64,000 nucleotides of DNA, from assembly GCA_023408075.1 (NCBI GenBank), contig JAEYKW010000046.1:1-64000 (forward strand), read 5' to 3'. The stretch is from Bacillota bacterium (lineage in GTDB: Bacteria > Bacillota > Clostridia > Christensenellales > SZUA-584). The notes under the pieces are model-generated. The model worked only from the letters and a program-made list of their open reading frames with translations, was not told where the DNA came from and searched no databases. Both the position numbers and the translations under genes were made by a program. Positions 27,231-41,153 of this stretch are shown here, in pieces; position 1 is the first letter of the stretch; each line of letters begins with the position of its first letter.

Positions 27231-28145
27231 TCAAGTTCTATTTTTATATTTGTTTACCATGTCATTTAATTCGTGCCGGAGCGCGTCGCGTATTTTCTGA
27301 GGGGATAACACCTCTGCATCAGCGCCGAACGAGAGGAGATAGCGGATCAGCCATTTGCTGTCTGGCAAAGAGGCAGTGACGGTGAAAGAACCGTCCTGAT
27401 GTTTAAAAATGCTGTTTTCCTCAAATTCATCGTATACTCGGTATGCACCTTCGGCGCGAATCTTCAGGCATAAATCGACCCGGTTCTGCGTTTCTTGTGC
27501 CTGTCCGCTTCCCGGTAATTCTGACGATTCTCTTTCTGAGAAAGACTCCGATGTCATCAGGATATCCGACATTCGTATGATTTTGAAGATTCTAAATGTA
27601 TTTCTGGCCAAACAGAACGCTTTCAGGTACCAGGCGTTTACCTTGAAGACGAGCTTAACTGGTTCAACTCTCCGGATGCTTTTTTCACCGGATGAGCTAA
27701 AATAATTGAACTCAATAATCCGGCGGCTTAAAATGGCGTCTTTTAAAATGGTAAAATGGCCCATCCTGCTTTCGTCGCTGCCCCAGGGGCTGAAATCCAC
27801 CTCAAGCCAACCGGTTTTGTTTTTATTGAACAAACTGCTCAATTTGGCAAGCACTTGATCCATCTGAGGAGCTTTAGTGACCGACAGGCTTTGCAATGCG
27901 TATAGGATTTCGTTTTGTTCTCTTTCCGAAAGGATGGATTTATCAAGCACGTAATCGTCCAGCAGAGAGATGCCTCCGCCCTTACCTTGGGTTGCATAAA
28001 TCGGCACGCCTGCCGAAGACAGGGTTTCGATATCTCGATAAATGGTTCTTTCAGATACTTCAAAACGCGCTGCCAGCTCTTTGGCGGTTGTGGTTTTTTT
28101 ACGAAGCAAGATATAGATTGTTTCAAACAGCCTGTTAATTTGCAT
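27231..28145 (-). CDS. WYL-domain transcriptional regulator (HTH_11 + WYL)
   Basis: AKELAARFEVSERTIYRDIETLSSAGVPI plus a WYL domain. First gene of the minus-strand operon. Confidence 0.8.
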   Translation of the reverse strand: MQINRLFETIYILLRKKTTTAKELAARFEVSERTIYRDIETLSSAGVPIYATQGKGGGISLLDDYVLDKSILSEREQNEILYALQSLSVTKAPQMDQVLAKLSSLFNKNKTGWLEVDFSPWGSDESRMGHFTILKDAILSRRIIEFNYFSSSGEKSIRRVEPVKLVFKVNAWYLKAFCLARNTFRIFKIIRMSDILMTSESFSERESSELPGSGQAQETQNRVDLCLKIRAEGAYRVYDEFEENSIFKHQDGSFTVTASLPDSKWLIRYLLSFGADAEVLSPQKIRDALRHELNDMVNKYKNRT

Positions 28146-28567
28146 ATCATCACCCCAAATTCATTATAAAGCAAATAACCTGATACTAATATGTCAAGTT
28201 ATGCGTCAATGAACCAAATGTGTTATGCCATTTTATGGGTAAATATTTGACGGTGGAGAATGATTGAATTGCCTTGTTGATTTTTGATTTATTCATCAAC
28301 ATCCACCGTCACGCCGGACTTGAACTCCACGGTGAATTTGTCCTCGTATACGGTGACTTTTTCAATTTACCGCAGACAAGCGGCTCGTGTATTCGACCTA
28401 GGCGGTGGGGGACTCACAGTTATATGATCGTAATGGGTCTCTTTTTGGACATTATAATAAACATGACAGTATGCCGTCATATTAGAAATGTTATTATAGA
28501 TTGTCGGAATCAAAAGGTGCGGAGAAAGTCCACCGAGCACTAAAAAGTAACTGGGAGATGAAGTCAT

Positions 28568-28894
28568 TTGAAAGACATGAATTTTAGCAAGATTATTGAA
28601 CGTTCCCTTGCCATAAGAGAAAGTTATCGTAAATTGGAAGAGCAGTATCACGGTGAAAAGTGGTCGGTCGGAGAAGATGCCCTTGCCTTTCTAACAGATG
28701 CCGGTCTGGTTGGCCGTTTAACAATGTCCCAACAAGGGCGTTGGCCCAAAGGAAACGGTACAGAAGCTGAATTGAAGCATAAGCTTAGCGAATGTATTTG
28801 GTGGCTGATTGTTTTGGCCGAGCGTATGGAGATCAATATTGAAGAGGCAGTGGAGGTTTTTTTGTCTAAGCTCGAAAAACAGATGCAAGGCTGA
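28568..28894 (+). CDS. MazG-like nucleotide pyrophosphohydrolase (YpjD-like small form)
   Basis: 108 aa with the EExGExxWxLxxLAxxxxIxxEEA pattern. Confidence 0.55.
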   Translation: MKDMNFSKIIERSLAIRESYRKLEEQYHGEKWSVGEDALAFLTDAGLVGRLTMSQQGRWPKGNGTEAELKHKLSECIWWLIVLAERMEINIEEAVEVFLSKLEKQMQG

Positions 28895-29017
28895 ATCGTT
28901 AGAGATACGAATATTTATAGCTGAATAACAAAATTATGCATTCTGCAATCATAATCCTGTAGAGTGGCTTTTTTTTATTATTCATCCACCGGCAAAAAAT
29001 GATATATTATTATTCTC

Positions 29018-29046
29018 TTGACAAATTCGTACTACGTATGTAGTAT
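29018..29046 (+). promoter_or_regulatory. blaI promoter (TTGACA-17-TAGTAT) overlapped by a BlaI/CopY-type operator palindrome
   Basis: TACTACgtatGTAGTA (29030-29045) lies between and over the -35/-10 elements; it is related to TACAnnTGTA cop/bla boxes. Confidence 0.45.
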
Positions 29047-29081
29047 TCAAATTACAGAGGTAAACAAAGGAGATATTAGCT

Positions 29082-29456
29082 ATGATACCCAAAATTTCCG
29101 ACTCTGAGCTGGAAGTCATGCGGTTGCTTTGGCGCGAAGAGCGCCCCTTGTCGTTTGCCGAGATACGCACGGAGCTTGAAAGCAAAACCAAATGGACTAA
29201 ATCCACGATTCAAACACTTGTGGTTCGCTTGCGCGACAAGGGCGCTGTCAGCACACAAACCAACTATGTAACTTTGTACAGTCCCGCCGTCACCGAGCAG
29301 GAATATGTATTGGCAGAGGGTCAATTGTTTCTGGATAAGCTGTTTAAAGGGAACGCGAAAAAGCTTGTCGCGTCATTGTGTGAAAACGGACAGTTAAACG
29401 AAAGCGACATCGACGAATTAAAGCAGTTTTTCAAAATGGAGGACTGTCAAAAATGA
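29082..29456 (+). CDS. blaI: BlaI/MecI/CopY-family transcriptional repressor
   Basis: Winged helix SDSELEVMRLLW...SFAEI...TKSTIQTLVVRLRDKG and a C-terminal dimerisation helix. Confidence 0.85.
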   Translation: MIPKISDSELEVMRLLWREERPLSFAEIRTELESKTKWTKSTIQTLVVRLRDKGAVSTQTNYVTLYSPAVTEQEYVLAEGQLFLDKLFKGNAKKLVASLCENGQLNESDIDELKQFFKMEDCQK

Positions 29457-31333
29457 TCATATCACAATTGAGCGACATTGTTTGCACGATTATGATTATG
29501 TCACTCTCCGGCAGCGCTCTCATACTGCTGTTGTTTGCATTAAAACCGCTCATACGTCATCAATTGCCCAAGTCGGTGCAATATGTCTTGTGGCTCGTTA
29601 CGCTCGCGGCACTGCTCGTTCCGGTATCAAAGCTGATTGCCATACCCGATGCGCCGTCACATATCATAGTTGCACCGATCCAAAACGCCGTAGAACAAAA
29701 CAATATCGCAGGTAAAGAAGCAGCGGATACACTTTCTCAGACGAATACAGTTTCGCAGACAGATAGAACGACAACGAAAAATCCGGGTGTTAAGCCAGCG
29801 ATGCACCCTGTATTCACAGCGGCAACTGTATTGATGATAATCTACATGTTAATCGTATTGGTCGTGCTGTCTTATTACATCGTCAGCTACGTTCGGTTCA
29901 CAAGAAGAGTGCGCCGCCATCGCACCCGGGCGCGCATGGAAGAGCTTTATGAGCATGTCGGGTTATGCGGCGATACGATTGCGCCCCGTCTTTACCGCAG
30001 CGCGCTGACCACAACGCCGATGCTGATCGGGATATTTAAACCCGAGATCATATTGCCCGACCGTGAATATACGGGCGCACAATTTCAGAGTGTATTAAAG
30101 CATGAGCTAACTCATTTGCGCAGACGGGACATCATAGTCAAGTGGCTGTCCGTGTTGGCCCGAGCTGTGCACTGGTTCAATCCGCTCGTATGGCTTGCGT
30201 TGCGCGAAATCGACCGTATCTGTGAATTGTCCTGTGACGAGGCCGTGATACGAACAATGGATCACGCAGGAAAACGGAGTTATGGGGAAACATTGATTTC
30301 CATCGCAGCTGATAACAATGCATCGCGGGCCGTGCTTTCCACAACGATGTGTGAGGAAAAAGAGGTATTGAAAGAGCGGCTGAACCTCATTATGAAATAC
30401 CAAAAGCGGACATGGGTCACGCTCGTTATCTCGACGATTATTATATTCGCAGCTGTTTTCACAGCCTTTGTTATGGGCGCACGGGCGGCTTCTGCTCCTG
30501 GAGATAATATGGCTGGCGCAGTGGCTCCGGCATCCGTGCAGAGTGCTCTTCCATCGGATTCTGCGGCAGCCCAGCCGCATTCTCCCTCTGAAAAAGTTAT
30601 AGAGTTCAAGGATCCGATTGTGGAGAAGGTCATCAGCGCCAAATTGAAAAAGCCAGAAGGCGCGATCACCGAGCAGGACATGCTGAAGATTGAGGATTTT
30701 GAATTCAATGATGTAAGAATGAATATATACAGCGGGAAAATTAAAACGATAGAGGACCTGCGCTGGTGTGTGAATCTTAAGAGTATATTCTTAGCCAGTA
30801 CGGACATAACAGATATTTCCGCGCTATCCGGCATGCGGAATCTCGAATCCGTCTGTATCATGGAAAAGCTTGACGACTTCACTCCGCTGCTTGGCAACAA
30901 GAACCTTACCGAAATCCAACTCACAGGCGCTGCCGACAACTTTTTCAGGGATCTGATGAAAAATTGCAGAATGCTTTCCTCCGTGGGCCTGACTAAGTCA
31001 GACGTCAGCCCTGAAAGCATCCGAATGTTGGCAATGAACTTTAAGTTAACAACTCTTGTTATGAATTTCTGCTATATAAAGGACGTCACTCCTTTCATCG
31101 ACTTCACGGGGCTGGAATACTTGTCGCTTGAAAACAACTATATAAAAGATATCTCGGTGTTTGCGGCGAACCCGGAATTGAGCAAAGCCATCGATCTGAG
31201 CGGCAACCAAATCACCGACTGGAGCCCGCTGGAAGATATGACGTTGCTTAGCCTCAACGTATATGATAATCCGGTAACGAAAAGTCCAGCACTGGATAAA
31301 CTCGAAAAAAAAGGCTGTGAAATTTATAGGTAA
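29453..31333 (+). CDS. BlaR1/MecR1-family M56 metalloprotease signal transducer with C-terminal leucine-rich-repeat sensor domain
   Basis: 4 TM helices, HELTHLRRRD (HExxH) and the M56 core. After a further TM helix there is an internalin-like LRR domain (...LSLENNYIKDISVFAANPELSKAIDLSGNQITDWSPL) instead of a penicillin-binding domain. Overlaps blaI by 4 nt. Confidence 0.8.
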   Translation: MIISQLSDIVCTIMIMSLSGSALILLLFALKPLIRHQLPKSVQYVLWLVTLAALLVPVSKLIAIPDAPSHIIVAPIQNAVEQNNIAGKEAADTLSQTNTVSQTDRTTTKNPGVKPAMHPVFTAATVLMIIYMLIVLVVLSYYIVSYVRFTRRVRRHRTRARMEELYEHVGLCGDTIAPRLYRSALTTTPMLIGIFKPEIILPDREYTGAQFQSVLKHELTHLRRRDIIVKWLSVLARAVHWFNPLVWLALREIDRICELSCDEAVIRTMDHAGKRSYGETLISIAADNNASRAVLSTTMCEEKEVLKERLNLIMKYQKRTWVTLVISTIIIFAAVFTAFVMGARAASAPGDNMAGAVAPASVQSALPSDSAAAQPHSPSEKVIEFKDPIVEKVISAKLKKPEGAITEQDMLKIEDFEFNDVRMNIYSGKIKTIEDLRWCVNLKSIFLASTDITDISALSGMRNLESVCIMEKLDDFTPLLGNKNLTEIQLTGAADNFFRDLMKNCRMLSSVGLTKSDVSPESIRMLAMNFKLTTLVMNFCYIKDVTPFIDFTGLEYLSLENNYIKDISVFAANPELSKAIDLSGNQITDWSPLEDMTLLSLNVYDNPVTKSPALDKLEKKGCEIYR

Positions 31334-31520
31334 GGAACTTTATAGCCCCGCCGTCACCGAGCAGGAATATGTATTGACCGAGGGTCAATTGTTTCTTGAT
31401 AAACTGTTTAAAGGGAACGCGAAAAAGCTTGTCGCGTCGTTGTGCGAAAACGGACAATTAAGCGAAAGTGACATCGACGAATTAAAACAATTTTTCAAAA
31501 TGGAGGACTGTCAAAAATGA
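31317..31520 (+). pseudogene. Truncated blaI copy (C-terminal dimerisation half only) created by tandem duplication
   Basis: The 67-aa ORF is about 90% identical to residues 66-124 of the full BlaI and lacks the DNA-binding domain. Confidence 0.5.
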
Positions 31521-33421
31521 TCATTTCACAATTAAGCGATATCATTTGCACGATTCTCATTATGTCTCTCTCCGGCAGCGCTCTCATACTGTTATTGTTT
31601 GCATTGAAACCGCTCATACGCCATCGTTTGCCCAAATCGGTGCAATATGTCTTGTGGCTTGTCACGCTTGCGGCACTGCTCGTTCCCGTATCAAAGCTGA
31701 TTACCATACCCCAAGCGCCGTCAGATATCATAGTTGCACCGATTCAAAATGCCGTGGAACAAAATAATGTTCTGGTTCAGGAAGAAACAAATATGGTGCC
31801 GCAGACGGACACAAATACAGTGCCGCAGACGGACACAACGACAGCAAAAAGTCCGGCTGTGAAACCGGCGATGAACCCTGTCATAACAGCCACAACCGTA
31901 CTGATGTTGGTCTATATATTAATTGTATTGGTCGTGCTGGCTTATTACATAGCCACCTACGTTCGTTTCACAAGAAGAGTGCGCCGGCACCGCACCCGGG
32001 CGCGTATGGAAGAGCTTTATGAGCATGTCGGGTTATGCGGCGATACGATTGCGCCTCGCCTTTACCGCAGCGCGCTGGCCACAACGCCGATGCTGATTGG
32101 AATTCTTAAACCTGAGATCATATTGCCTGACCGTGAATATACCGACACACAGATGCAGAGTGTATTGAAACATGAGTTAACTCATTTGCGCAGACGGGAC
32201 ATTATTTTTAAATGGCTGTCTATATTCGCCCGCGCTTTGCATTGGTTCAATCCGCTCGTATGGCTTGCGCTGCGCGAAATCGACCGTATCTGTGAATTGT
32301 CCTGTGACGAGGCTGTGATACGGACTCTCGATCAAACGGGAAAACGGATTTACGGGGAAACGTTGATTTCCATCGCATCGGATACGAATGCATCGCGGGC
32401 CGTGCTTTCCACAACGATGTGTGAAGAAAAAGAGGTGTTGAAAGAGCGGCTGAACGTTATTATGAGATACCAAAAGCGCACATGGATCACTCTCGTTGTT
32501 TCGACGGTCATCGTGGTTGCGGCGGTTTGCGCCGTCTGTGTGTTCGGTGCGGGAGCGGCTCCGTCGGCGGCTCCGGGCAATAATAAGGTGGATGCATTAG
32601 CAGCAGTCGCCATACAGAGCCCGTCAGCAACGCCCGTGGCAACGCCGGAATCAGCCTCCTTGCAGAGCGTTTTGCCGTCGGCGGCGCCTGAAGAAGAGGC
32701 GCAGCCAGTATCTTTAGAGAGCCCATCGACGGCACCTGAGGCAGCAATGCAACCGGCACCCGTTCAAAGCTTTTTCGCATCACCTGCGCAAACACCGGAC
32801 CCGGATTATATAAATGAGCTGCGCAAAGATGCCATAGAAGTAAGCACAGAAGAAGAATTTGCTGATGCGCTGAATACTGCCGACGTCGTTGTATTGAAAA
32901 AAGATTTAACGCTAGATGATGAATTTGTGACATTAGAAGATTTAGAAGCGCTGGTTATTGATGAAGGCGTTACACTGACTGTCACGTGTTTGAATCTTCA
33001 TGCGACCTGTGAAATCGTCAACCTTGGAGAAATCATAGTGGCCGATTCCGGTCGATTGATGTTTTTCAGTGAACCGGATTATTCTACGATCGGTAAAATC
33101 AGTGTTATAGGGAAAGACGCCAAAATCTTATACGGTGCAGGCAAAGTCGGTGCTGAAGCAATTGCTTATTATCTGAGCGATGATTCGCTCTTTAATGAGC
33201 TTAGTTTAACCCCGCCTTACAGGGATGGCGAAATTGTTGAGATACTCGTTGACCAAGACATTGAGATAGCCGCCGGTAAAACTCTTTGGATGAATGCTCA
33301 TAGCGTACTGCATGTGGCAGAGGGAGTGACCCTTACCAATAACGGGGCCATACGCTATTATGTCGAACCCATCATCGACGGGAAAATCGATGGAATAGGA
33401 AAAGTCGTCTATGATGATTAA
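31517..33421 (+). CDS. BlaR1-family M56 signal transducer paralog with novel C-terminal extracellular domain ('domain X')
   Basis: The N-terminal 340 aa are about 90% identical to the first BlaR1. After a Pro/Ala/Ser-rich linker there is a 210-aa domain shared with the LysM protein at 33501 (…VIDEGVTLTVT..NLHATCEIVNLGEIIV.DSGR…). Confidence 0.8.
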   Translation: MIISQLSDIICTILIMSLSGSALILLLFALKPLIRHRLPKSVQYVLWLVTLAALLVPVSKLITIPQAPSDIIVAPIQNAVEQNNVLVQEETNMVPQTDTNTVPQTDTTTAKSPAVKPAMNPVITATTVLMLVYILIVLVVLAYYIATYVRFTRRVRRHRTRARMEELYEHVGLCGDTIAPRLYRSALATTPMLIGILKPEIILPDREYTDTQMQSVLKHELTHLRRRDIIFKWLSIFARALHWFNPLVWLALREIDRICELSCDEAVIRTLDQTGKRIYGETLISIASDTNASRAVLSTTMCEEKEVLKERLNVIMRYQKRTWITLVVSTVIVVAAVCAVCVFGAGAAPSAAPGNNKVDALAAVAIQSPSATPVATPESASLQSVLPSAAPEEEAQPVSLESPSTAPEAAMQPAPVQSFFASPAQTPDPDYINELRKDAIEVSTEEEFADALNTADVVVLKKDLTLDDEFVTLEDLEALVIDEGVTLTVTCLNLHATCEIVNLGEIIVADSGRLMFFSEPDYSTIGKISVIGKDAKILYGAGKVGAEAIAYYLSDDSLFNELSLTPPYRDGEIVEILVDQDIEIAAGKTLWMNAHSVLHVAEGVTLTNNGAIRYYVEPIIDGKIDGIGKVVYDD

Positions 33422-33500
33422 GAACCAAAATTAAGATTTATAGCGGATATATAGTAAAACGAATTGTTTAATAACTTAATGCCGATAATAGGAGGATGCC

Positions 33501-34427
33501 ATGAAAAGATATTTCGCTATCACAATTGTCATTATCTTCATCCTGTCCTTGCTGCCGGGTTATGCCAGCGCTGGCACTGCTGAGCCTTCTATAATAACAG
33601 CCCGTGCGACTGCGCCAGATCTTAAACCCGGCCAGATTTCTCAGATGTATGAGGAGTATACCGTCAAGCGCGGAGACAGCCTTTCTTCGATTGGCAGACA
33701 ATTTGGCGTATCATGGCGGGACATCGCGAAACTGAACGATATACATGGCCCGAAGTATACAATTCGACCCGGTCAAATATTAAAAATCCCACAGTCACTA
33801 ACATCATCCCCGTCTTATGTAAAACAGCTGCGCAAAAATGCAGTAAAAGTGAACACAGAAAAAGAATTTGCTAATGCGCTGAAAACAGCCTATGTCATTG
33901 AACTGAAAAAAGATATAACTTTAAGTGAAAATCTTGTTACATTAGACGATATCAATGCGCTGGTTATTGATGAAGGCGTTACGTTGACTGTCACATCTAT
34001 GAATTTTCATGCTACATGTGCAATCGTTAACCTTGGAGAAATCATAGTGAAGGACTCCGGCCGGATGATTTTTCACAGTGAACCGGATTACTCCTGTATC
34101 GGTAAAATCAGTACCAGAGGGAGATTCGCTCAAATTGCCTTCAATTCGGGAAAAATCGGTGCTGATGAAATGACTTATTTCCTGAGCGAAGATTCGCTGT
34201 ACGATTCGCTCAATATTGTCGCAAGTTCCTCCGATGGAAAACCTGTCGAGATATTGGTTGACCATGACATTGTCATCCCTGCCAGTAAAACCCTTTGGAT
34301 AAATTCTGGAAGCGTTTTGCATGTGTCAAAGGGAGTGAAGCTAACCAATAACGGTACCATAAGCTATTTTAACGAACCTATCATTGACGGGAAAATCGTT
34401 GGAATAGGAGAAGTCATTGATAACTAG
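33501..34427 (+). CDS. Secreted LysM-domain protein carrying 'domain X' (shared with BlaR1 paralog 2)
   Basis: Signal peptide and LysM (YTVKRGDSLSSIGRQFGVSWRDIAKLN...ILKIP). The C-terminal 210 aa are about 55-60% identical to the BlaR1b sensor domain. Confidence 0.7.
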   Translation: MKRYFAITIVIIFILSLLPGYASAGTAEPSIITARATAPDLKPGQISQMYEEYTVKRGDSLSSIGRQFGVSWRDIAKLNDIHGPKYTIRPGQILKIPQSLTSSPSYVKQLRKNAVKVNTEKEFANALKTAYVIELKKDITLSENLVTLDDINALVIDEGVTLTVTSMNFHATCAIVNLGEIIVKDSGRMIFHSEPDYSCIGKISTRGRFAQIAFNSGKIGADEMTYFLSEDSLYDSLNIVASSSDGKPVEILVDHDIVIPASKTLWINSGSVLHVSKGVKLTNNGTISYFNEPIIDGKIVGIGEVIDN

Positions 34428-34791
34428 AAACCGTATTTAAGCTTAAGGCTCATCAACTGAATTCAATTATTAACGGATATGCTAAATTTAAAACAGCGGA
34501 ACGCTTCACTTTAGCGGTTATATTTCTGCTCAAGGTTCCCATACTAGTGCTCACATTTATTAACATTGGATGGGATCTTTTACGGTAGCAATTGGGTGTG
34601 GAACGACGTCGTAAAAAACGTCGTTCCGAGCGGGTTCGGTCGGTTTATGCTTTTCAGTTTATATTGACTCCTATCTCAGTGACCCGTCGATTGCGTTGAA
34701 ACCTTAAAGCACGAAGATAATTACGATAGCAATCGTTTAGCAGCTAATGAAACAATTTTTGAAATTCTGAAAAAAACAGCAGGAGGACGCC

Positions 34792-36246
34792 ATGAAAAGA
34801 TTATACACCTTAACAATCGTCATTCTCCTCATACTGACCCTGCTGCCGGGCTATGCCAACGCGGGTGCAGCCGCATTTCCCGAAGCATCCGCGCAAGCGG
34901 CTGCCTTAACACCTCCGGTGCCGATACTGTCACTCGCGCTCGACCAATACTCTGAGCTTTACCGGGAGTACACGGTTAAGCGCGGTGACAGTCTTATCTC
35001 GATAGGCAGACAGTTCAAGGTGCCGTGGAGAGATCTTGCAATACTGAACGGTATAGGGGGACCAAAGTACACGGTTACCAACGGACAAACCCTCAAAATC
35101 CCGCTGCTGCCGAAGCTGCCGGGGACAACCGGCAATTATCTTATTCTTTGCGAAAACGAAGCGCAAAAGCAATGCCTGGCCGAATTCGCAGCATACAAAA
35201 TATTAAACGGATATTCGGTGACGATAAAAAGCGTGGAAGCGGATGTCAAATTGAAAGCCGATGCCGACACCAGCGAAGAGATACGGCAATATCTTAAGAA
35301 GATGGACAAGGTGTTATCGCTGGAATTCGTGTTACTTGTCGGGAGCGCTTACGATGAAGAATCGGCTTGTATTCAGCACACCGGCGGAGCTATTCCGCTG
35401 AGATATATGTACGACAATCCGGCCAATCGTGACTACAGTTGGTACGATGGCAAGAACCATAAAGTATTCAAAACGCCGACAGATATCTATTATGCGTTGG
35501 ATCTAAACTGGGATTTTGACGAGGATGGTTTCGCAGGCGAAAGGAATGAGATGGCCGAAAGCGTTAAGCAAGCAGAGCCCAAGTTGTTGTTCCGGCTTGG
35601 CAGAATCCCATTTTCGGATAGCAAAGATATCAAGAAGGTACTGGATTCAACGATGCAATATGAAATCAGCCAAAAAGCACATTCTGATGCTCTGATCGGC
35701 AGCTATGGGATATGGGCTTACTATAGCGATGCGCTTGCGAATAATTTCTCCAATATGAAGATTAAGGCTGTCTCGCTTTACGGAAATGACGAAAATGGGC
35801 CGTGTCAGTACAAAAGCACCTACCCGTTAAGTATCGATAATTTCTTTAGTGAAATCAATAAGAAGTATGACTTTGTTTATATAATGGGCGATATAAAAAA
35901 ATATTGCGGCAACACGCCTTTAGGGAAACGCGTGCAGGCCGGAATTTACTTCCTCGACGGTACGGCGACAATGCAAGCGGAGCCCGAACCGAAATATTCT
36001 CGATTTAATGCACAGGATTTCCTTGCCGAAGGGTCGGCCTGTACCGTGATTGCCACCACCGAAGAAGTCGGTTTTAACCCGAAAAATCCGGTCCCGCGCA
36101 TAACCAGCAGGTTATTCTCCAATAAAATGCTCAGCATCTCAGGTGAATTCTATGCCGCGGTACTGTCGTCGATCATGGAGGACGATGTGAGGGAAGCCTA
36201 TGTTTACTGCTATCTCGGTGACCCGTCTATCGCCTTAAAACAATAA
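34792..36246 (+). CDS. Secreted LysM-domain protein with C-terminal peptidase-C25 (gingipain)-like domain
   Basis: Signal peptide and LysM paralogous to the 33501 gene. C-terminal region has the C25-type pattern YALDLNWDFDEDGFAGE...PKLLFRLGRIPFS. The catalytic His/Cys are not clearly identifiable. Confidence 0.55.
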   Translation: MKRLYTLTIVILLILTLLPGYANAGAAAFPEASAQAAALTPPVPILSLALDQYSELYREYTVKRGDSLISIGRQFKVPWRDLAILNGIGGPKYTVTNGQTLKIPLLPKLPGTTGNYLILCENEAQKQCLAEFAAYKILNGYSVTIKSVEADVKLKADADTSEEIRQYLKKMDKVLSLEFVLLVGSAYDEESACIQHTGGAIPLRYMYDNPANRDYSWYDGKNHKVFKTPTDIYYALDLNWDFDEDGFAGERNEMAESVKQAEPKLLFRLGRIPFSDSKDIKKVLDSTMQYEISQKAHSDALIGSYGIWAYYSDALANNFSNMKIKAVSLYGNDENGPCQYKSTYPLSIDNFFSEINKKYDFVYIMGDIKKYCGNTPLGKRVQAGIYFLDGTATMQAEPEPKYSRFNAQDFLAEGSACTVIATTEEVGFNPKNPVPRITSRLFSNKMLSISGEFYAAVLSSIMEDDVREAYVYCYLGDPSIALKQ

Positions 36247-36478
36247 TGGGGGTGCTGGGGCTCATTGAATGAGCCAGGAAAGGGGACATGGGAATAAAGG
36301 CCTTCTATAGCAGGATTAACGCCATATGAGGCCTTAATTCCATAAAAAGCGAAGAGAGAAAGTCAGCCGCAGAGCCAGTATTAGCGGAAAAGAGCTGCCT
36401 TCACCAAGCCGGATAGTCGGAGGGATTTGAGCCACAGCTGTTTTTGTGATATATTCGGTATAAAATTTTTATTAAGAT

Positions 36479-37000
36479 TTGGAGTCAAAAATGGATAAGG
36501 CTAAACGAAACAACACGATAACTTTTTCATTATTCATCATTTATATATTGGTATTGATATGGATAGTCCTTTTTAAACTGCACTTTTCTTTTGCAGAAAT
36601 GGACAGGATAAGAACTATCAATCCGATTCCATTTCAGGGCTCCGGCATTGGTGCTAATGAAGTTTATAACATACTTTTTTTCATTCCTTATGGTATTTAT
36701 ATATGTATGTTAAAACGCCAATGGTCTTTTATAAAAAAGGTTATTATCATTCTATGTTTCAGTTTGTCTTTTGAAATCCTTCAATATATTTTTGCAGTCG
36801 GAAGAACGGACATAACGGACTTGCTATGCAATATGCTGGGCGGAATCATTGGTGTTGGTATTTACGGATTGTTATTCAGAATAATAAAATATAAAACCAA
36901 TAACGTCTTGAATATTGTACTTTTGTTATTAACAGTATGTATATTATTGTTTTTCGCTTTGTTAGTTACACACTCGCTGCCGTTTGTTTTTAATCTATAA
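36479..37000 (+). CDS. VanZ-like family membrane protein
   Basis: 4 TM helices. LSFEILQYIFAVGRTDITDLLCNMLGGIIG matches the VanZ pattern. Confidence 0.6.
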   Translation: MESKMDKAKRNNTITFSLFIIYILVLIWIVLFKLHFSFAEMDRIRTINPIPFQGSGIGANEVYNILFFIPYGIYICMLKRQWSFIKKVIIILCFSLSFEILQYIFAVGRTDITDLLCNMLGGIIGVGIYGLLFRIIKYKTNNVLNIVLLLLTVCILLFFALLVTHSLPFVFNL

Positions 37001-37173
37001 ATCTATAGATTGATAACTGTGCTGTTTGGTCGCTCGGTTTGCGAGTTTTAACATTTGCAAAAAGGTATATTATACGACATTTTCCATGGAATTAACTTGT
37101 ACTAACATAACGAATAAACTATAATATCCATATATAACTAAGATAAAAATAGAAAAAAAGGAGTATTGGACCA

Positions 37174-39849
37174 ATGAAAAAGCTTAGTCTCTTTCTCGTG
37201 TTGTTGTTACTCATTTCTATGTTCCCATTACAGGCATTGGCTGCCGATGAAAACAACGACAGCTATAACGATCACGATGTGGCGCAGATAAGCGCATTTT
37301 TGAATCAAACGTCTTCCGGCTTAACCAACGCGGAAATACTCGGTTATGCCGACCCAAATGATCCGGCGATATGGAGCGATGTCTCTTGGGTTTCAGTGGA
37401 TGGTGAACAACGCGTTCAGAGCATCAACTGGGGCTTTAAGGATACCGCAGGAGTGCTGGACCTTTCGGGATGCACGGCCTTGACCGAACTGTATTGTCTC
37501 TCGATCGGGCTGACCTCTCTGGATGTGAGTGGATGCACCGCTTTAAGCACGCTATCATGCGAATTTAATTCGCTGACCAGCCTCGATGTCAGCACCTGCA
37601 GCTCGCTCAGTCAGCTTTCTTGTTATGTTAATGCTATTGAAACATTAAATGTGAGTGGCTGCAGCAATTTGACATGGCTGAATTGTTCTGAAAATAAACT
37701 CACACAGCTCGATGTGAACAGCTGTGCCAATCTTGGCGATCTTGATTGCAGTCATAACAATTTGTCGTCGTTGGATGTGAGCGGCTGCCCTCTGGGATAC
37801 TTATCATGTACTGAAAACCCGCTGAAACAGATTCACGCTGTTATAGAGGGAGAGGATGTCAAACTGAACGCATCAGCAGGATATCTTAAGTTATCTTATT
37901 TGGCTTACGACATCGAAGGTGAGATGTACGTCGATAGATATTCCGCGTCGGCTGTCCCTGACAGCATGCCGTGCTCCGGGTGGACGGGAATGCAGGACGG
38001 GGTGTTATTCTCGTCAGACGATTCCAATATCGATCTTGAAATCGGCTGTTCATACGACATTACCGCGAATTTTGCGAGCGGAACCGTATACAACGACCAT
38101 GACGTCACAAAGATGCAGGTATTCCTCAATAAAGAGCCTTTAGAGGGACCAAATTACATGCAGCTGGGTTATGACGTTGACGACCCGTCCACCTGGAACG
38201 ATGTGACTTGGGTGGCTTCGCCCGAAGGCCTGCGCATATCGGCGGTTGAATGGAACGAAAGACAAGCCGTCGGCGGTACGCTCGATCTTTCCGGCTGCGC
38301 CTATCTTGAGTCTGTCGATTTTTACGGTAACGAGCTTCATGGGCTTAATTTGAACGGCTGTGCCGCGCTTAAGAATGTTTCCTGCAACGATAATTATCTT
38401 GATACGCTGAGTCTAAGCGGATGCGACGAGTTAACAAGCTTAAAGCTCAACAACAACAACGGGCTTCTCATTGCGCTTGAGCTGCAGGGGTATACAAAGC
38501 TTGAGCACCTTGAGTGCGTACAAAGTCTTCTCGATACACTTGATGTTGGCGGCTGCACGGCACTCACATATCTTGATTGCAGCAACACTTATGAGTACAA
38601 TCGCAATTTTATCAACACTCTTGACCTGAGCGACAGCACGGGGCTGACAACGCTGAAATGTGCAGGCAATCCTCTGGCTCGTATAAGCGCGATTATGAAC
38701 GATACTGTGATAGATCTTACCGCCGGAGGGTGGGGATATGTCGCATTATCTGAGGGCGGAGAGACAGCTTATACGGTGCAAGTGCCCGATACTCAACCGT
38801 TTTCAAGCTGGATAGGCACACAGGACGGCTCCCCGTTCTTTTCAGCCGAATCGACAATAAATTTAACGCCCGGCTCCGAATATGTCCTGATGGCGAATTT
38901 CGGTTACGGCGTTTTTTACGACGGCAACGGAGCGACGGGCGGCACAGTACCCGATGGCGGCAGACACAACGCGGGGGATTCCATTGGGGTGCGCAGCAAC
39001 TCGGGCAGCCTTGAGCGAGCGGGTTTTGAATTTGCAGGCTGGAACACGGCGGCTGACGGCAGCGGCACATCATACAGCGAGGACTCATCGATGATGATGC
39101 CCGCAGAGAACATCACGCTGTACGCGGTTTGGGAGCCCATCGCCTATACCATCACCTATGACCTCGACGGAGGTGAGGCACAGAATCCCGCGACTTACAA
39201 TGCTCTGACCCCGGCATTCACGCTGAATAATCCTACGAAACTGGGATATGTGTTTGCGGGCTGGACGGGAACGGACCTTGCGAATGCGGCGATGAGCGTC
39301 AGCTTCCCGGCGGGGTCCATAGGCGACAGGGCTTACACAGCAAACTGGGCGCAGAACACAGTATACACCGTCACATTCGATGCGAAGAACGGGAGCGCGG
39401 TGGACAGCATTGAGGTGAATGCGGGAGGGACAATTGAAACCGCCCCTGTCACGAGCCGGTTCGGTTATAACTTTACCGGCTGGTATACGAAGAAGGGAGT
39501 GCTCATAACGTTCCCATATCATGTAACGGGCAGCGTGACGCTTTATGCGGGGTGGGAGAAGCAGCCAAAGACAGCATACCTTTCGGATGTTGAACTCTCG
39601 TCTGGCACTCTCGATTCAAACTTTTCGAATTCGAAATACCTCTATTTAATAAGGCTGCCCGAGAGTGAGACGAGCTTTACGCTGACCCCGGTTAAAGAGT
39701 ATGATGGCGCTTCGATGTCGATAAACGGGGAATCCACATCGAGTTACACGGTTAACCTTGAAAACCATAGGAATGCGCTGATATGCGTGATCGTGCAAAA
39801 CGGCAAAAGCATAAGGCTGTATACTTTCATCGTGCACAGAGGAAGATGA
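37174..39849 (+). CDS. Large secreted LRR protein with Listeria-Bacteroides repeats and C-terminal cadherin-like beta-sandwich domain
   Basis: Signal peptide and two copies of the cap+LRR module seen in the 14349 gene. Also 3-4 Listeria-Bacteroides (Flg_new) repeats (GY.FAGW..). C-terminal LS.GTLDSNFSNSKYLY...FTLTPV is cadherin-like. Confidence 0.75.
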   Translation: MKKLSLFLVLLLLISMFPLQALAADENNDSYNDHDVAQISAFLNQTSSGLTNAEILGYADPNDPAIWSDVSWVSVDGEQRVQSINWGFKDTAGVLDLSGCTALTELYCLSIGLTSLDVSGCTALSTLSCEFNSLTSLDVSTCSSLSQLSCYVNAIETLNVSGCSNLTWLNCSENKLTQLDVNSCANLGDLDCSHNNLSSLDVSGCPLGYLSCTENPLKQIHAVIEGEDVKLNASAGYLKLSYLAYDIEGEMYVDRYSASAVPDSMPCSGWTGMQDGVLFSSDDSNIDLEIGCSYDITANFASGTVYNDHDVTKMQVFLNKEPLEGPNYMQLGYDVDDPSTWNDVTWVASPEGLRISAVEWNERQAVGGTLDLSGCAYLESVDFYGNELHGLNLNGCAALKNVSCNDNYLDTLSLSGCDELTSLKLNNNNGLLIALELQGYTKLEHLECVQSLLDTLDVGGCTALTYLDCSNTYEYNRNFINTLDLSDSTGLTTLKCAGNPLARISAIMNDTVIDLTAGGWGYVALSEGGETAYTVQVPDTQPFSSWIGTQDGSPFFSAESTINLTPGSEYVLMANFGYGVFYDGNGATGGTVPDGGRHNAGDSIGVRSNSGSLERAGFEFAGWNTAADGSGTSYSEDSSMMMPAENITLYAVWEPIAYTITYDLDGGEAQNPATYNALTPAFTLNNPTKLGYVFAGWTGTDLANAAMSVSFPAGSIGDRAYTANWAQNTVYTVTFDAKNGSAVDSIEVNAGGTIETAPVTSRFGYNFTGWYTKKGVLITFPYHVTGSVTLYAGWEKQPKTAYLSDVELSSGTLDSNFSNSKYLYLIRLPESETSFTLTPVKEYDGASMSINGESTSSYTVNLENHRNALICVIVQNGKSIRLYTFIVHRGR

Positions 39850-40193
39850 AAAGGATGATAGCCGATAGAGCCATAAATCGGAGATAACGTATATTGAAGC
39901 CTGTAAAATGGTTTTTAGAAAGCGGTTCGCAACGCTGTCAAGAAAAACGAACAGGAAAAAAGTTGACTGGCTCTCGCACTCTACGGGAGTCAGTTTTTAT
40001 TCTCCGATTGTTTCTCGATATTATTTTTAAGGAATTGAATTCCCCGTCACTTTGTTCGTAAACAGTAATTTTCTCTGTCATTGCGGGAAGCCTTTTCTAT
40101 GTCAAAATGATTTTGGCGCAGTGACGTTCGGTAAAGATACAACCAAAGATCAACAAACCGGTTTAGTATAGAATAAGAGTATAAAAAGCCCTC

Positions 40194-41153
40194 TTAATCG
40201 AGTATCTTTATATCAATGACCGCATCCTGATTAATGACTCTTCCGGCCTCGTCAATATATTTATCGCGGTTTTCCCATGTTATGCTGATCTTTTGATATC
40301 TTGACAGCGTTTCCGGGGCAACCTCGGTCTGTGTCATCCAGAACCAAAGGTCATCGCCTTCGATCGTACGGACGGCCATATGTTTATAATCGCCCCATTG
40401 CAGCCCTGCAAAATAAAAGTCCAGTTCTTTTGTATCATGGACGGTGCCATCGACAAGGTTGTCATCTTCCTCCGCTATATCTTCGGTCGGTTCTTCCTGA
40501 TTCTCCGGCACAGTATCCCCAAAGGACTCGGCAGTACCGGGGTACCCTTGATAGTCCTGTGCGACCTTCCATTTGCCGTCTTGGGGCACAAGCACAAACA
40601 CGCGGTAGTTAAGCCCCTCCCGGTAATCCCAAAATTCCTTATCGAGCGTATAATCCGTTTTAGCGACAAGCAGGCGGACGTCTCCGTATATTTCCGGCAC
40701 GTCAGACCGAAAGCCTGATGCGATCTCGTAAGGAATATTGTCGGTTTCATAATCAGAGAGCTTCGATTTTGCATCTTCGATTTCCCGTATATCAGCCAAT
40801 TTGGCGCTCTCAATAGAGAAATAGCCGTTTTTGTTTTTCTCATTGTCGGAGTATGCAAAGAAATCCTTAAAATATTGCTGCTCCTCGTTGGTCCAGAGGT
40901 TTAAGAAAGCGTCCCAGTCGTGAGCGTTCTGGGCGGCAATAAAGTCTGTGATGACGGCTTCGATTTCCGGATCAAGCGTGGAAGACGGTGAGGCAGCTGC
41001 GGCTTCCGTTTTGGCGGGGACAGGCGAAGCAGCCGGGGCAGCGGTAGCGCCGGGAGTTGGGGTGATGGATGATATATTGCCGGGATTACCGCATGCCGCA
41101 AGGACAAACAGCAGCATCAAAAGCACAATCAGCAAAACAAACACAGAACGCAT
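40194..41153 (-). CDS. Hypothetical lipoprotein
   Basis: Lipobox LAACG, Ala/Pro/Thr-rich linker, AGGAGGTG RBS before MRSVF. Confidence 0.45.
   Translation of the reverse strand: MRSVFVLLIVLLMLLFVLAACGNPGNISSITPTPGATAAPAASPVPAKTEAAAASPSSTLDPEIEAVITDFIAAQNAHDWDAFLNLWTNEEQQYFKDFFAYSDNEKNKNGYFSIESAKLADIREIEDAKSKLSDYETDNIPYEIASGFRSDVPEIYGDVRLLVAKTDYTLDKEFWDYREGLNYRVFVLVPQDGKWKVAQDYQGYPGTAESFGDTVPENQEEPTEDIAEEDDNLVDGTVHDTKELDFYFAGLQWGDYKHMAVRTIEGDDLWFWMTQTEVAPETLSRYQKISITWENRDKYIDEAGRVINQDAVIDIKILD

What the first reader, a model, noticed from the sequence alone, without database searches (positions are those of the whole stretch)
32789..34427. Uncharacterised ~210-aa 'domain X' shared between a membrane sensor (BlaR1 paralog) and a secreted LysM protein
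Residues ~425-634 of the 31517 protein and ~100-308 of the 33501 protein align along their full length. A pattern such as LVIDEGVTLTVT..N.HATC.IVNLGEIIV.DSGR.F.SEPDYS.IGKIS is conserved between them. I cannot place the domain in a known family. The alternating hydrophobic and polar repeats suggest a beta-rich fold. Sharing it between a signal transducer and a wall-binding protein suggests it binds a common cell-envelope ligand, or that the two proteins bind each other.
Basis: seen in the sequence. Interest (0 to 1): 0.7.

Follow-up and report, generated by a model that had tools for sequence, protein, structure and literature searches.

The report
Beta-helix module shared by sensor and wall protein
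A BlaR1-like membrane sensor-protease and the wall-anchored LysM protein encoded next to it share a real, unannotated ~210-residue domain that folds as a right-handed beta-helix, a modestly novel variant of a known kind of signalling operon that hints at how non-antibiotic BlaR-type sensors choose their signals.

Summary
Residues ~420-631 of the M56 protein (31517-33421) and ~97-306 of the LysM protein (33501-34427) are 58% identical over 226 aa (E 1e-89), and the match is not low-complexity.

An exhaustive profile search finds 148 clusters. About 47 carry the whole domain, mostly at the extreme C-terminus, on M56 sensors, RCC1, SLH and MerR proteins.

The window operon reads: BlaI-box promoter, blaI, M56-LRR, blaI 3' fragment, M56-X, LysM-X.

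In related Bacillota genomes X and the LRR module swap between the M56 C-terminus and a downstream anchored protein:
- M56-X followed by lipoprotein-LRR
- M56-LRR followed by lipoprotein-X
- M56-X followed by TM-X, 87% identical
- some M56-X loci have no free X

Best reading: X is a non-enzymatic binding module used both as the sensor input of a non-beta-lactam BlaR-type system and as a surface module. The ligand is unknown. I rate this a new variant of a known kind, of moderate interest.

The parts
29018..29046 (+). Promoter-like site (TTGACA-17-TAGTAT) enclosing the palindrome TACTACGTATGTAGTA (29030-29045), the likely BlaI operator
   Evidence: Consensus scan and sequence. It is the only match in the 64-kb window. 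The same TAC(T/G)AC-N4-GTA(G/A)TA box lies between -35 and -10 upstream of blaI in L001, L010, L011, L012 and L017. Its resemblance to the BlaI/MecI TACA/TGTA operators is from my own knowledge.
29082..29456 (+). blaI-type repressor gene (124 aa)
   Evidence: PF03965 Penicillinase_R, E 5.5e-27, 94.8 bits against a cutoff of 22.6.
29453..31333 (+). M56 paralog 1: BlaR-like chassis (aa 1-345) plus an extracellular LRR domain (aa ~381-626, nt 30593-31330)
   Evidence: PF05569 E 7e-56 and LRR_4 E 6e-17. The chassis is 77% identical to paralog 2 over 383 aa. HExxH at residue 217 and four hydrophobic segments.
31317..31520 (+). 67-codon ORF that is a copy of the 3' half of blaI (homology 31338-31517), marking a tandem duplication of the blaI'-M56 unit
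   Evidence: tblastn of BlaI gives 96.7% identity over 60 aa. The DNA repeat 29270-30436 versus 31336-32506 is 86.8% identical. dN 0.021, dS 0.49.
31517..32551 (+). M56 paralog 2, membrane/protease chassis (aa 1-345; hydrophobic segments near aa 9-27, 46-64, 128-146 and 324-342; HELTH at 219-223)
   Evidence: PF05569 E 1.1e-55, 189 bits. Hydropathy and motif scan.
32552..32779 (+). Ala/Pro/Ser-rich linker (aa 346-421) between the last transmembrane segment and domain X
   Evidence: Composition is A19 P12 S11 out of 76 residues. It is the least conserved part between orthologs (54% aa identity, dN/dS 0.43).
32780..33418 (+). Domain X copy 1 (aa 422-634), the predicted extracellular sensor domain of the M56 protein
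   Evidence: 58% identity to copy 2. Profile hit E 4e-112. Ortholog dN/dS 0.24.
33501..33791 (+). Signal-peptide-like segment (aa 1-24, ...GYASA/G) and a single LysM domain (aa 53-97) of the 308-aa protein
   Evidence: LysM PF01476 E 4e-16. Hydropathy. The segment is 60% identical to the N-terminus of the 34792 protein, with saturated dS of about 2.2.
33792..34424 (+). Domain X copy 2 (aa ~98-308), the right-handed beta-helix module that was modelled
34792..36246 (+). LysM-Peptidase_C25-like secreted protein; it shares only the signal peptide and LysM part with the LysM-X protein
   Evidence: PF01364 E 2.7e-13 and PF01476 E 4e-10. BLASTP of the N-termini gives 60% identity. It lies directly downstream of M56-X in L011 and further downstream in L025.

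Best explanation
Domain X is a compact (~210 aa), probably non-enzymatic, right-handed parallel beta-helix binding module. It belongs to an unannotated family of Bacillota proteins.

In this operon X serves in two places:
- It is the extracellular C-terminal input domain of a BlaR1-type M56 zinc-protease sensor, taking the place of the penicillin-binding domain of true BlaR1.
- It is the functional part of a secreted protein tethered to peptidoglycan by LysM and encoded 79 nt downstream.

Proposed mechanism, step by step:
1. BlaI represses the single promoter through the TACTAC-N4-GTAGTA box.
2. An extracellular macromolecular ligand binds X on the M56 protein. The paralog with an LRR domain would sense a second cue.
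3. Binding activates the cytoplasmic HExxH protease, which cleaves BlaI.
4. The operon is derepressed, raising the sensors and the wall-bound X module. That module binds the same or a closely related ligand (adhesion or capture).

This is the design already known for RsgI sensors, which carry the same binding modules as the enzymes they regulate.

What is shown: the homology, the fold class, the M56/BlaI/LysM identities, the conserved operator-like box, the gene order, purifying selection on both copies, and the recurrent module sharing in related genomes.

What is inferred: the topology, co-transcription, protease activation, the nature of the ligand, and that both copies bind the same thing.
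For: Homology: 58% identity, E 1e-89.

No enzyme signature: across 36 diverse members the invariant positions are Gly, Pro or hydrophobic.

Sensor position: X lies after the fourth hydrophobic segment of an M56 protein with an intact HExxH. Eight of about 47 full-length family clusters are M56 proteins, including M56-RCC1-X and M56-PBP-X that sit next to BlaI genes.

Operon: there is a single BlaI-like palindrome inside the promoter, conserved in five related loci. No terminator-like site is predicted between M56-X and LysM-X.

Module sharing between the sensor and the downstream anchored protein recurs:
- window, L001, L010: M56-X followed by LysM-X
- L017: M56-X followed by TM-X, 87% identical
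- L012: M56-X followed by lipoprotein-LRR
- L014: M56-LRR followed by lipoprotein-X

Both X copies are under purifying selection between species (dN/dS 0.24 and 0.29).

Precedents from the literature:
- Non-transpeptidase BlaR homologs are the majority of the family, and 96% lie near a BlaI (PMC13492132).
- C. thermocellum BlaI regulons are confined to their own operon, for example BlaI plus two BlaR1 genes plus a hypothetical protein (PMC8457756).
- RsgI sensors carry polysaccharide-binding modules (PMC10328401, PMC4711584, PMC6852018).
- B. subtilis RsgI and PBP1 share a sensing IDR (PMC9732909).
Against: - No ligand is identified and no binding site could be mapped.
- The sensor/free-copy pairing is not obligatory. 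M56-X loci L011, L012, L021 and L025 have no free X. Free X occurs without M56-X in L005, L018 and L014.
- Adjacent paralogous domains can arise from local duplication without any functional link.
- Between the two paralogous copies dN/dS rises to 0.50-0.56, so they may have diverged in specificity.
- A promoter-like site (33333-33361) lies upstream of the LysM-X gene and no BlaI box is near it, so BlaI control of LysM-X is not proven.
- MerR-RCC1-X proteins lack any hydrophobic segment, so the family is not restricted to the cell surface.
Confidence: 0.5

Rival explanations
1. Partner recognition. The M56 sensor domain binds the co-encoded anchored surface module itself, either X with X (homotypic) or X with LRR (heterotypic). 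The system would then monitor the amount, folding or occupancy of its own surface protein as a feedback or tethered-ligand circuit, rather than an external ligand shared by both.
For: The reciprocal arrangement M56-X + lipoprotein-LRR (L012) and M56-LRR + lipoprotein-X (L014), and both sensors plus LysM-X in the window, L001 and L010. In lineage B the sensor's X and the downstream TM-X are 87% identical (dS 0.16) but only 67% identical to the upstream TM-X, as expected if interacting copies are homogenised. LRR domains are classic protein-binding modules (established knowledge).
Against: L011, L025 and L021 have M56-X with neither a free X nor an LRR nearby. Lineage B has no LRR. Solo TM-X genes lie far from any M56 (L005, L018). 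Paralogous copies in the window are only 61% identical with raised dN/dS. No complex prediction could be run.
Confidence: 0.2
2. Incidental domain shuffling. The locus is a hot spot where surface-protein modules (X, LRR, C25-like, LysM, lipoprotein signals) are duplicated and recombined. The shared domain reflects recent local duplication or gene conversion, and the two proteins work independently.
For: The mosaic history is evident. A tandem duplication of blaI'-M56 is 86.8% identical at the DNA level. LysM-X is built from parts of different ages: dS 0.47 for X against about 2.2 for the signal peptide plus LysM. A remnant of a 204-aa gene lies in the downstream spacer. X domains cluster by lineage rather than by carrier. 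Close M56 chassis relatives carry dozens of different C-terminal domains. The pairing is facultative.
Against: The same outcome (sensor X followed immediately by an anchored X) arose at least twice with different anchors. It has been retained under purifying selection in several species. The reciprocal X/LRR swap keeps the same two modules together in four locus types.
Confidence: 0.25
3. X is a small polysaccharide-active enzyme domain (lyase, hydrolase or epimerase of the pectate-lyase fold). The sensor would then detect or process the substrate catalytically.
Against: The domain has only about seven coils and ~210 aa, against more than 300 aa for the enzymes. The best and longest structural matches are adhesins (Awp3b, SRRP, tapirin, Pet). 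No catalytic family model is matched. Family-wide invariant residues are Gly, Pro or hydrophobic. Sequence identity to the enzymes is 5-16%.
Confidence: 0.05

Closest known systems
BlaR1/MecR1-BlaI/MecI beta-lactam sensing systems (S. aureus, B. licheniformis)
   Same: Same operon logic and parts. There is a winged-helix BlaI repressor (PF03965) with a palindromic operator inside its own promoter. It is followed, with overlapping stop and start codons, by an M56 membrane zinc-protease with four hydrophobic segments, an HExxH motif and a C-terminal extracytoplasmic domain.
   Different: The C-terminal sensor is not a penicillin-binding transpeptidase-like domain but a beta-helix (or LRR in the paralog). 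NCBIfam blaR1_generic scores 137 bits against a cutoff of 400. No beta-lactamase or PBP2a gene is in the operon. The outputs are surface proteins.
Non-canonical BlaIR systems such as C. difficile CenIR, and the 'M56 + no identifiable C-terminal domain' class (PMC13492132)
   Same: An M56 chassis next to BlaI with a C-terminal region that no Pfam model recognises. That paper reports 254 architectures, with transpeptidase-bearing BlaR at only about 6% and signals largely unknown.
   Different: Here the C-terminal region is a well-folded ~210-aa domain (pLDDT 96), not a short disordered tail. It has a free paralog encoded next door, which gives a handle on the signal.
C. thermocellum BlaI_0696 operon (BlaI, two BlaR1 genes, one hypothetical protein) defined by DAP-seq (PMC8457756)
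   Same: Same layout: one repressor, two BlaR paralogs and a downstream uncharacterised protein proposed as the response function. The regulon is limited to its own operon.
   Different: No sequence comparison with that operon was made here. Its sensor domains are not known to be shared with the hypothetical protein.
SigI/RsgI polysaccharide-sensing anti-sigma factors of cellulolytic clostridia, and B. subtilis RsgI/PBP1 (PMC10328401, PMC4711584, PMC6852018, PMC9732909)
   Same: Same design principle. A membrane signalling protein that is activated through proteolysis carries an extracellular binding module of the same kind as those on the proteins it regulates or cooperates with.
   Different: Unrelated machinery: an anti-sigma factor with regulated intramembrane proteolysis, versus an M56 protease that cleaves a repressor. 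The modules there are CBM3, PA14, GH domains or IDRs, not a beta-helix.
Beta-helix adhesin domains: L. reuteri SRRP binding region (5nxk), C. glabrata Awp3b/Awp1 A-domains (7o9p, 7o9q), Caldicellulosiruptor tapirins (6n2b), S. pneumoniae PfbA (4mr0), and Pfam PF20585
   Same: Right-handed parallel beta-helix on cell-surface proteins. An N-terminal helical cap motif gives weak PF20585 matches.

Membership tests
Peptidase M56 / BlaR1-like sensor-transducers (broad family) | M56 domain (PF05569) above the gathering threshold | tested here: met
   189.4 bits against a cutoff of 31, E 1.1e-55, profile positions 3-296 of 296.
Peptidase M56 / BlaR1-like sensor-transducers (broad family) | HExxH zinc motif located between the third and fourth transmembrane segments | tested here: met
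   HELTH at residues 219-223. Hydrophobic segments lie near residues 9-27, 46-64, 128-146 and 324-342. The topology itself is inferred from the BlaR1 model.
Peptidase M56 / BlaR1-like sensor-transducers (broad family) | Adjacent BlaI/MecI-type repressor gene | tested here: met
   PF03965 at 94.8 bits for the 29082-29456 product. The same arrangement is found in L001, L010, L011, L012, L017, L019, L020, L021 and L025.
Bona fide BlaR1/MecR1 beta-lactam sensors | C-terminal penicillin-binding (transpeptidase-like) sensor domain; equivalog-level match | tested here: not met
   No PF00905 hit. NCBIfam blaR1_generic scores 136.7 bits against a cutoff of 400, covering only model positions 8-324. MecR1 and BlaR1 exception models score 52 and 34 bits against a cutoff of 1200.
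BlaI/MecI regulon | Palindromic operator in the promoter of the blaI-blaR operon | tested here: met
   TACTACGTATGTAGTA at 29030-29045 lies between -35 and -10 and is unique in the window. It is conserved in position in five related loci. Actual BlaI binding is not testable here.
Pfam PF20585 Pectate_lyase_5 (putative pectate lyase-like adhesive domain) | Score at or above the gathering threshold of 24.3 bits | tested here: not met
   12.7 bits, E 0.15, covering only residues 115-152 of the LysM-X protein. The best family relative reaches 21.8 bits (P0011).
Right-handed parallel beta-helix (pectin-lyase-like) fold class | Predicted structure superposes on solved right-handed beta-helices | tested here: met
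Right-handed parallel beta-helix (pectin-lyase-like) fold class | Catalytic acidic/basic residues of the lyase or hydrolase members | tested here: inconclusive
   No residue-level superposition was possible. Family-wide invariant positions are Gly, Pro or hydrophobic. D155, D157, K164, W167 and N169 are 69-88% conserved.
LysM peptidoglycan-binding proteins | LysM domain above threshold, preceded by a secretion signal | tested here: met
   PF01476 at 59.1 bits against a cutoff of 20.9, residues 53-97. An N-terminal hydrophobic segment at residues 5-23 is followed by ASA/G (no dedicated signal-peptide predictor was run).

The most novel reading that the evidence does not exclude
The M56 sensors of this clade do not read an external chemical. 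They read their own co-encoded surface modules. The X or LRR domain on the protease binds the anchored X or LRR protein made from the next gene (X-X or X-LRR pairs, as suggested by the reciprocal M56-X/lipoprotein-LRR and M56-LRR/lipoprotein-X loci). BlaI cleavage would then report whether that surface protein is present, free or engaged with a target. This would be a previously undescribed 'tethered partner' mode of BlaR-type signalling.
Probability: 0.15. Interest if true: 0.7.

Novelty: new variant of a known kind. Interest (0 to 1): 0.45.

Why it matters
About 94% of BlaR-like M56 sensors lack a penicillin-binding domain, and their signals are essentially unknown (PMC13492132). This locus offers a folded, soluble sensor domain whose free paralog is made by the neighbouring gene. 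In sister genomes the domain trades places with an LRR module. That makes the input of a non-canonical BlaR system experimentally approachable: express X, find what it binds, and test BlaI cleavage.

The pattern also suggests a general rule that can be tested by genome-neighbourhood statistics, namely that the sensor borrows the binding module of the protein it controls. In addition, the work defines an unannotated beta-helix domain family of about 150 clusters at 50% identity. It could be added to domain databases, which would remove part of the 'M56 + nothing' class.

Tried and rejected
- **Low complexity or chance similarity.** Rejected: E 1e-89 with compositional adjustment.
- **Known family by sequence.** Pfam, NCBIfam and three PDB sequence searches (single sequence, 8-sequence profile, 36-sequence profile) gave nothing at threshold.
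- **Foldseek against the PDB.** No hit with E of 0.001 or better. The afdb50 library was unavailable.
- **A parallel pairing for the LRR sensor.** I tested whether the M56-LRR sensor domain has a specific paralog in the 891-aa LRR protein at 37174-39849. It does not (E 0.07).
- **A single tandem duplication as the origin of LysM-X.** The idea was a duplication running from the start of X in M56-X to the end of LysM in the C25 gene. I rejected it as stated because dS is 0.47 for the X halves but about 2.2 for the signal peptide plus LysM halves.
- **Obligatory sensor/free-X pairing.** Rejected: L011, L012, L021 and L025 lack a free X.
- **Exclusively extracellular family.** Not upheld: MerR-RCC1-X proteins have no hydrophobic segment.
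- **Word-indexed homolog search.** Run with the X domain or the 36-sequence profile, it returned only the same 7 proteins and missed the M56-X proteins that are in the database. The exhaustive representative search was needed.
- **Genome and metagenome contig scans.** Each gave only 3 loci. The 36-sequence alignment was too diverse for pattern scanning.
- **Other collections.** No relatives in the plasmid or phage collections. No Rfam family in 28000-40500.
- **Source habitat.** A literature search for the origin of the MAGs (OH_HBrB, OH_HFB) found nothing relevant.
Full report
**1.

The 634-aa product of 31517-33421 and the 308-aa product of 33501-34427 align over 226 residues. Identity is 58%, positives 76%, with two gaps and E 1e-89 under compositional adjustment. 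It is not low complexity.

The carriers are as described:
- The first protein has Peptidase_M56 (PF05569) at E 1e-55. It has four hydrophobic segments and HELTH at residues 219-223.
- The second has a hydrophobic N-terminal segment ending in ASA/G and one LysM domain at E 4e-16.

**2. Anatomy of the locus (plus strand).**

- A promoter-like site (TTGACA-17-TAGTAT, 29018-29046) encloses the palindrome TACTACGTATGTAGTA (29030-29045), which is unique in the window.
- blaI follows at 29082-29456 (PF03965).
- M56 paralog 1, with a leucine-rich-repeat C-terminus, lies at 29453-31333.
- A 67-codon ORF (31317-31520) copies the 3' half of blaI.
- M56 paralog 2, carrying domain X, lies at 31517-33421.
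- After a 79-nt gap with an AGGAGG ribosome-binding site comes LysM-X (33501-34427).
- After a 364-nt spacer come LysM-Peptidase_C25-like (34792-36246), VanZ (36479-37000) and an 891-aa LRR/Flg_new surface protein (37174-39849).
- The only strong terminator-like site is at 39965-39995.

The two M56 chassis are 77% identical. They lie in a DNA repeat (29270-30436 versus 31336-32506, 86.8% identity) that begins inside blaI, so the pair arose by tandem duplication of a blaI'-M56 unit. The signal peptide and LysM part of LysM-X is 60% identical to that of the C25-like protein.

**3. What domain X is.**

No curated model captures it. In Pfam the only trace is a sub-threshold match of the first ~40 residues to PF20585, 'putative pectate lyase-like adhesive domain' (12.7 bits, cutoff 24.3). 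NCBIfam gives nothing on the X region. PDB sequence searches with one sequence and with two profiles found nothing.

AlphaFold2 with 8 homologs gave pLDDT 82. With a 36-sequence alignment of diverse family members it gave pLDDT 96.3 and pTM 0.90. Both models have the same layout: a two-helix N-terminal cap, about twenty short strands, and one inserted helix.

- Pet and IgA1-protease autotransporter passengers
- tapirins, PfbA, polygalacturonases, pectate and alginate lyases, and phage tailspikes

Left-handed helices superpose only at rmsd 11-12 Å. Foldseek gave nothing significant. The conclusion is fold-class membership without a close structural relative.

Across 36 diverse members the invariant positions are Gly, Pro or hydrophobic. 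A moderately conserved polar/aromatic cluster (D155, D157, K164, W167, N169) exists. I read this as a binding or scaffold module rather than an enzyme, but that is inference.

**4. The wider family.**

An exhaustive HMM search of 1.84 billion cluster representatives found 148 clusters with E of 1e-3 or better, and 54 with E of 1e-10 or better. About 47 contain the full domain, and in 37 of these it ends within 7 residues of the C-terminus.

Architectures seen:
- M56-X
- M56-RCC1-X
- M56-periplasmic-binding-protein-X
- SLH-RCC1-X and RCC1-X
- DUF5050-X
- X followed by an F5/8-type-C domain
- X-SLH
- MerR-RCC1-X

The remaining roughly 100 clusters are giant surface proteins (Big_2, dockerin, SLH, fn3) that match only the last two coils, repeatedly.

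Eight of the ~47 full-length clusters are M56 proteins, and those whose context could be read sit next to a BlaI gene. The MerR-RCC1-X proteins have no hydrophobic segment at all. The family is therefore not strictly extracellular, although X again occupies the position where MerR regulators carry their effector-binding domain.

Conversely, the closest 120 relatives of the M56 chassis carry very diverse C-terminal domains: LRR, DUF4825, DUF5050, RCC1, Flg_new, DUF4362, DUF5301, or none recognised. Only eight carry X. This fits the published survey of 254 M56 architectures, in which 'M56 + nothing recognisable' is the largest class (PMC13492132).

**5. Comparative loci: the most informative result.**

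All close relatives come from uncultured Bacillota MAGs and metagenomes.

| Locus | Gene order |
|---|---|
| window | BlaI - M56-LRR - M56-X - LysM-X - LysM-C25 |
| L001, L010 | BlaI - M56-LRR - M56-X - LysM-X |
| L011 | BlaI - M56-X - LysM-C25 |
| L025 (syntenic with the window) | BlaI - M56-X - 204-aa membrane protein - 375-aa lipoprotein - LysM-C25 - VanZ |
| L012 | BlaI - M56-X - lipoprotein-LRR (LRR domain E 1e-89 to the window's M56-LRR sensor) - RCC1 protein |
| L014 | M56-LRR - lipoprotein-X |
| L017, L016, L009 (second, more distant lineage) | TM-anchored X - BlaI - M56-X - TM-anchored X |
| L005, L018 | TM-anchored X alone |
| L021 (distant) | BlaI - M56-RCC1-X - FG-GAP-like membrane protein, no X |

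Two points follow:
- X and the LRR module are interchangeable between the sensor's C-terminus and a downstream anchored protein.
- 'Sensor X followed immediately by an anchored X' arose at least twice, with different anchors (LysM versus an N-terminal transmembrane helix).

X domains cluster by lineage, not by carrier. The window's M56-X is 61% identical to its own LysM-X but only 46-47% identical to lineage-B M56-X. In L017 the sensor's X is 87% identical to the downstream TM-X and 67% identical to the upstream one.

**6. Selection and age.**

| Comparison | dN/dS | dS |
|---|---|---|
| X of M56-X, window vs L001 (orthologs) | 0.24 | 0.37 |
| X of LysM-X, window vs L001 (orthologs) | 0.29 | 0.37 |
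| M56 chassis, window vs L001 (orthologs) | 0.18 | 0.65 |
| X paralogs within one genome | 0.50-0.56 | 0.47-0.58 |
| L017 M56-X vs downstream TM-X | 0.45 | 0.16 |
| Signal peptide + LysM, LysM-X vs LysM-C25 | 0.13 | ~2.2 |

Both X copies are functional and under purifying selection. The paralogs show raised dN/dS, which indicates some divergence after duplication. The LysM N-termini are saturated at synonymous sites (dS ~2.2), so LysM-X is a mosaic of an old anchor and a younger, or gene-converted, X.

**7. How it most likely works.**

Shown:
- a BlaI gene with a conserved palindrome between -35 and -10, present in the window and in five related loci
- M56 proteins with intact zinc motifs
- a folded beta-helix placed where BlaR1 carries its penicillin-binding domain
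- no predicted terminator between M56-X and LysM-X

Inferred from the BlaR1 paradigm and from DAP-seq evidence that clostridial BlaI regulons are confined to their own operon (PMC8457756): ligand binding to X, or to the LRR on the paralog, activates the protease. BlaI is cleaved and the operon is induced, including the wall-tethered X. I propose that sensor and effector share a binding module because they address the same or a related macromolecular ligand. Precedents are RsgI sensors, whose extracellular binding modules sense the polysaccharides that their regulon degrades (PMC10328401, PMC4711584, PMC6852018), and B. subtilis RsgI and PBP1, which share an IDR (PMC9732909). My confidence in this full chain is about 0.5. 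Confidence in the structural and family statements is about 0.9.

Rivals:
- Partner recognition (X-X or X-LRR binding between the sensor and the co-encoded anchored protein), 0.2. It is suggested by the reciprocal L012/L014 arrangement and by the 87% identity in L017. It is weakened by loci that lack a partner.
- Incidental shuffling in a recombination hot spot, 0.25.
- An enzymatic beta-helix, 0.05.

**8. Relation to what is known.**

The proteins are members of the broad M56/BlaR-like family: domain, motif, topology pattern, adjacent BlaI and operator-like palindrome are all met. They fail the defining feature of true BlaR1/MecR1, the transpeptidase-like sensor (blaR1_generic 137 bits against 400). 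X fails Pfam PF20585 membership but belongs to the right-handed beta-helix fold class.

The system is best described as a new variant of the non-canonical BlaIR class. Its distinguishing features are:
- a previously unannotated folded sensor domain
- two sensor paralogs behind one repressor
- a free copy of the sensor module as a neighbouring gene

**9. Verdict.**

'Cannot be placed in a known family' is true at family level but not at fold level. The functional suggestions remain open, with comparative evidence favouring some functional coupling. It is moderately interesting (0.45). The fold and the diversity of M56 sensors are unsurprising to specialists. The sensor/effector module sharing and the X/LRR swap give a concrete route to identifying signals of orphan BlaR-type systems.

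**10. Limits.**

- No model coordinates were available for surface mapping.
- No multimer prediction was possible.
- Contexts of several distant members lie on short contigs.
- The dS estimates rest on 60-340 codons.
- The source organism is uncultured.
- The comparison of the palindrome with BlaI/MecI operators rests on my own knowledge.

Noticed in passing
window 31317-31520 (homology to blaI at 31338-31517): A 67-codon ORF between the two M56 genes copies the C-terminal (dimerisation) half of BlaI. It differs from the blaI 3' end by about 15 nt but only 2 amino acids (dN 0.021, dS 0.49, dN/dS 0.04). Its stop overlaps the M56-X start, just as blaI's stop overlaps the M56-LRR start. That pattern is odd for a dead remnant, so it may be translated as a BlaI C-terminal mini-protein, or be kept similar by gene conversion. 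In L001 the equivalent stretch is decayed (50% over 36 aa) and in L010 it is undetectable.
   Followed up: partly
window 34484-34658: The 364-nt spacer between LysM-X and LysM-C25 holds a frameshifted remnant (60-68% aa identity in two frames) of a 204-aa multi-pass membrane protein. That gene is intact directly downstream of M56-X in the syntenic locus L025. A perfect 10-bp hairpin without a T-run lies inside the remnant at 34600-34627.
   Followed up: partly
window 34792-36246: A secreted LysM protein whose C-terminal ~380 aa match only the N-terminal part of Peptidase_C25 (gingipain family; profile positions 1-152 of 374, E 2.7e-13). It is conserved downstream of M56-X in L011 and L025. I did not check whether the catalytic His/Cys are present.
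   Followed up: no
window 36479-39995: A VanZ-like membrane protein (36479-37000) and an 891-aa surface protein with two LRR blocks, three Flg_new (Listeria-Bacteroides) repeats and a cadherin-like domain (37174-39849). They are followed by the only strong terminator-like hairpin of the region (39965-39995). They may belong to the same transcription unit. The LRRs are not specifically related to the M56-LRR sensor.
   Followed up: partly
window 31796-31836 (M56-X residues ~93-108): A tandem duplication of the peptide VPQTDT(N/T)T lies in the predicted extracellular loop between transmembrane segments 2 and 3 of M56-X. It showed up as a repeated GTGTCCGTCTGCGGCAC hairpin-like hit on the minus strand. 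This loop is the most divergent part of the two M56 chassis.
   Followed up: no
proteins P0011 and P0020 (from the representative search): MerR HTH + coiled coil + RCC1 propeller + up to three X-like domains, with no hydrophobic segment anywhere. These are apparently cytoplasmic one-component regulators that use RCC1-X in the effector-domain position.
   Followed up: partly
L012 8685-11179 and L014 2-2148: Reciprocal module swap. L012 has M56-X followed by a lipoprotein-LRR (lipobox ...FTATGC, Pro/Thr linker) and then an RCC1 protein. L014 has M56-LRR followed by a lipoprotein-X (P0004, lipobox ...AAAGC, Pro/Thr linker).
   Followed up: yes
L017 6671-11163: In the second lineage the M56-X gene is flanked by two TM-anchored X genes. 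The downstream copy shares the sensor's derived features (for example the SFS(I/M)(A/R)IDRKDAADD and GYSSVGELAE stretches, 87% identity). This points to recent duplication or gene conversion between the sensor and the free copy.
   Followed up: yes
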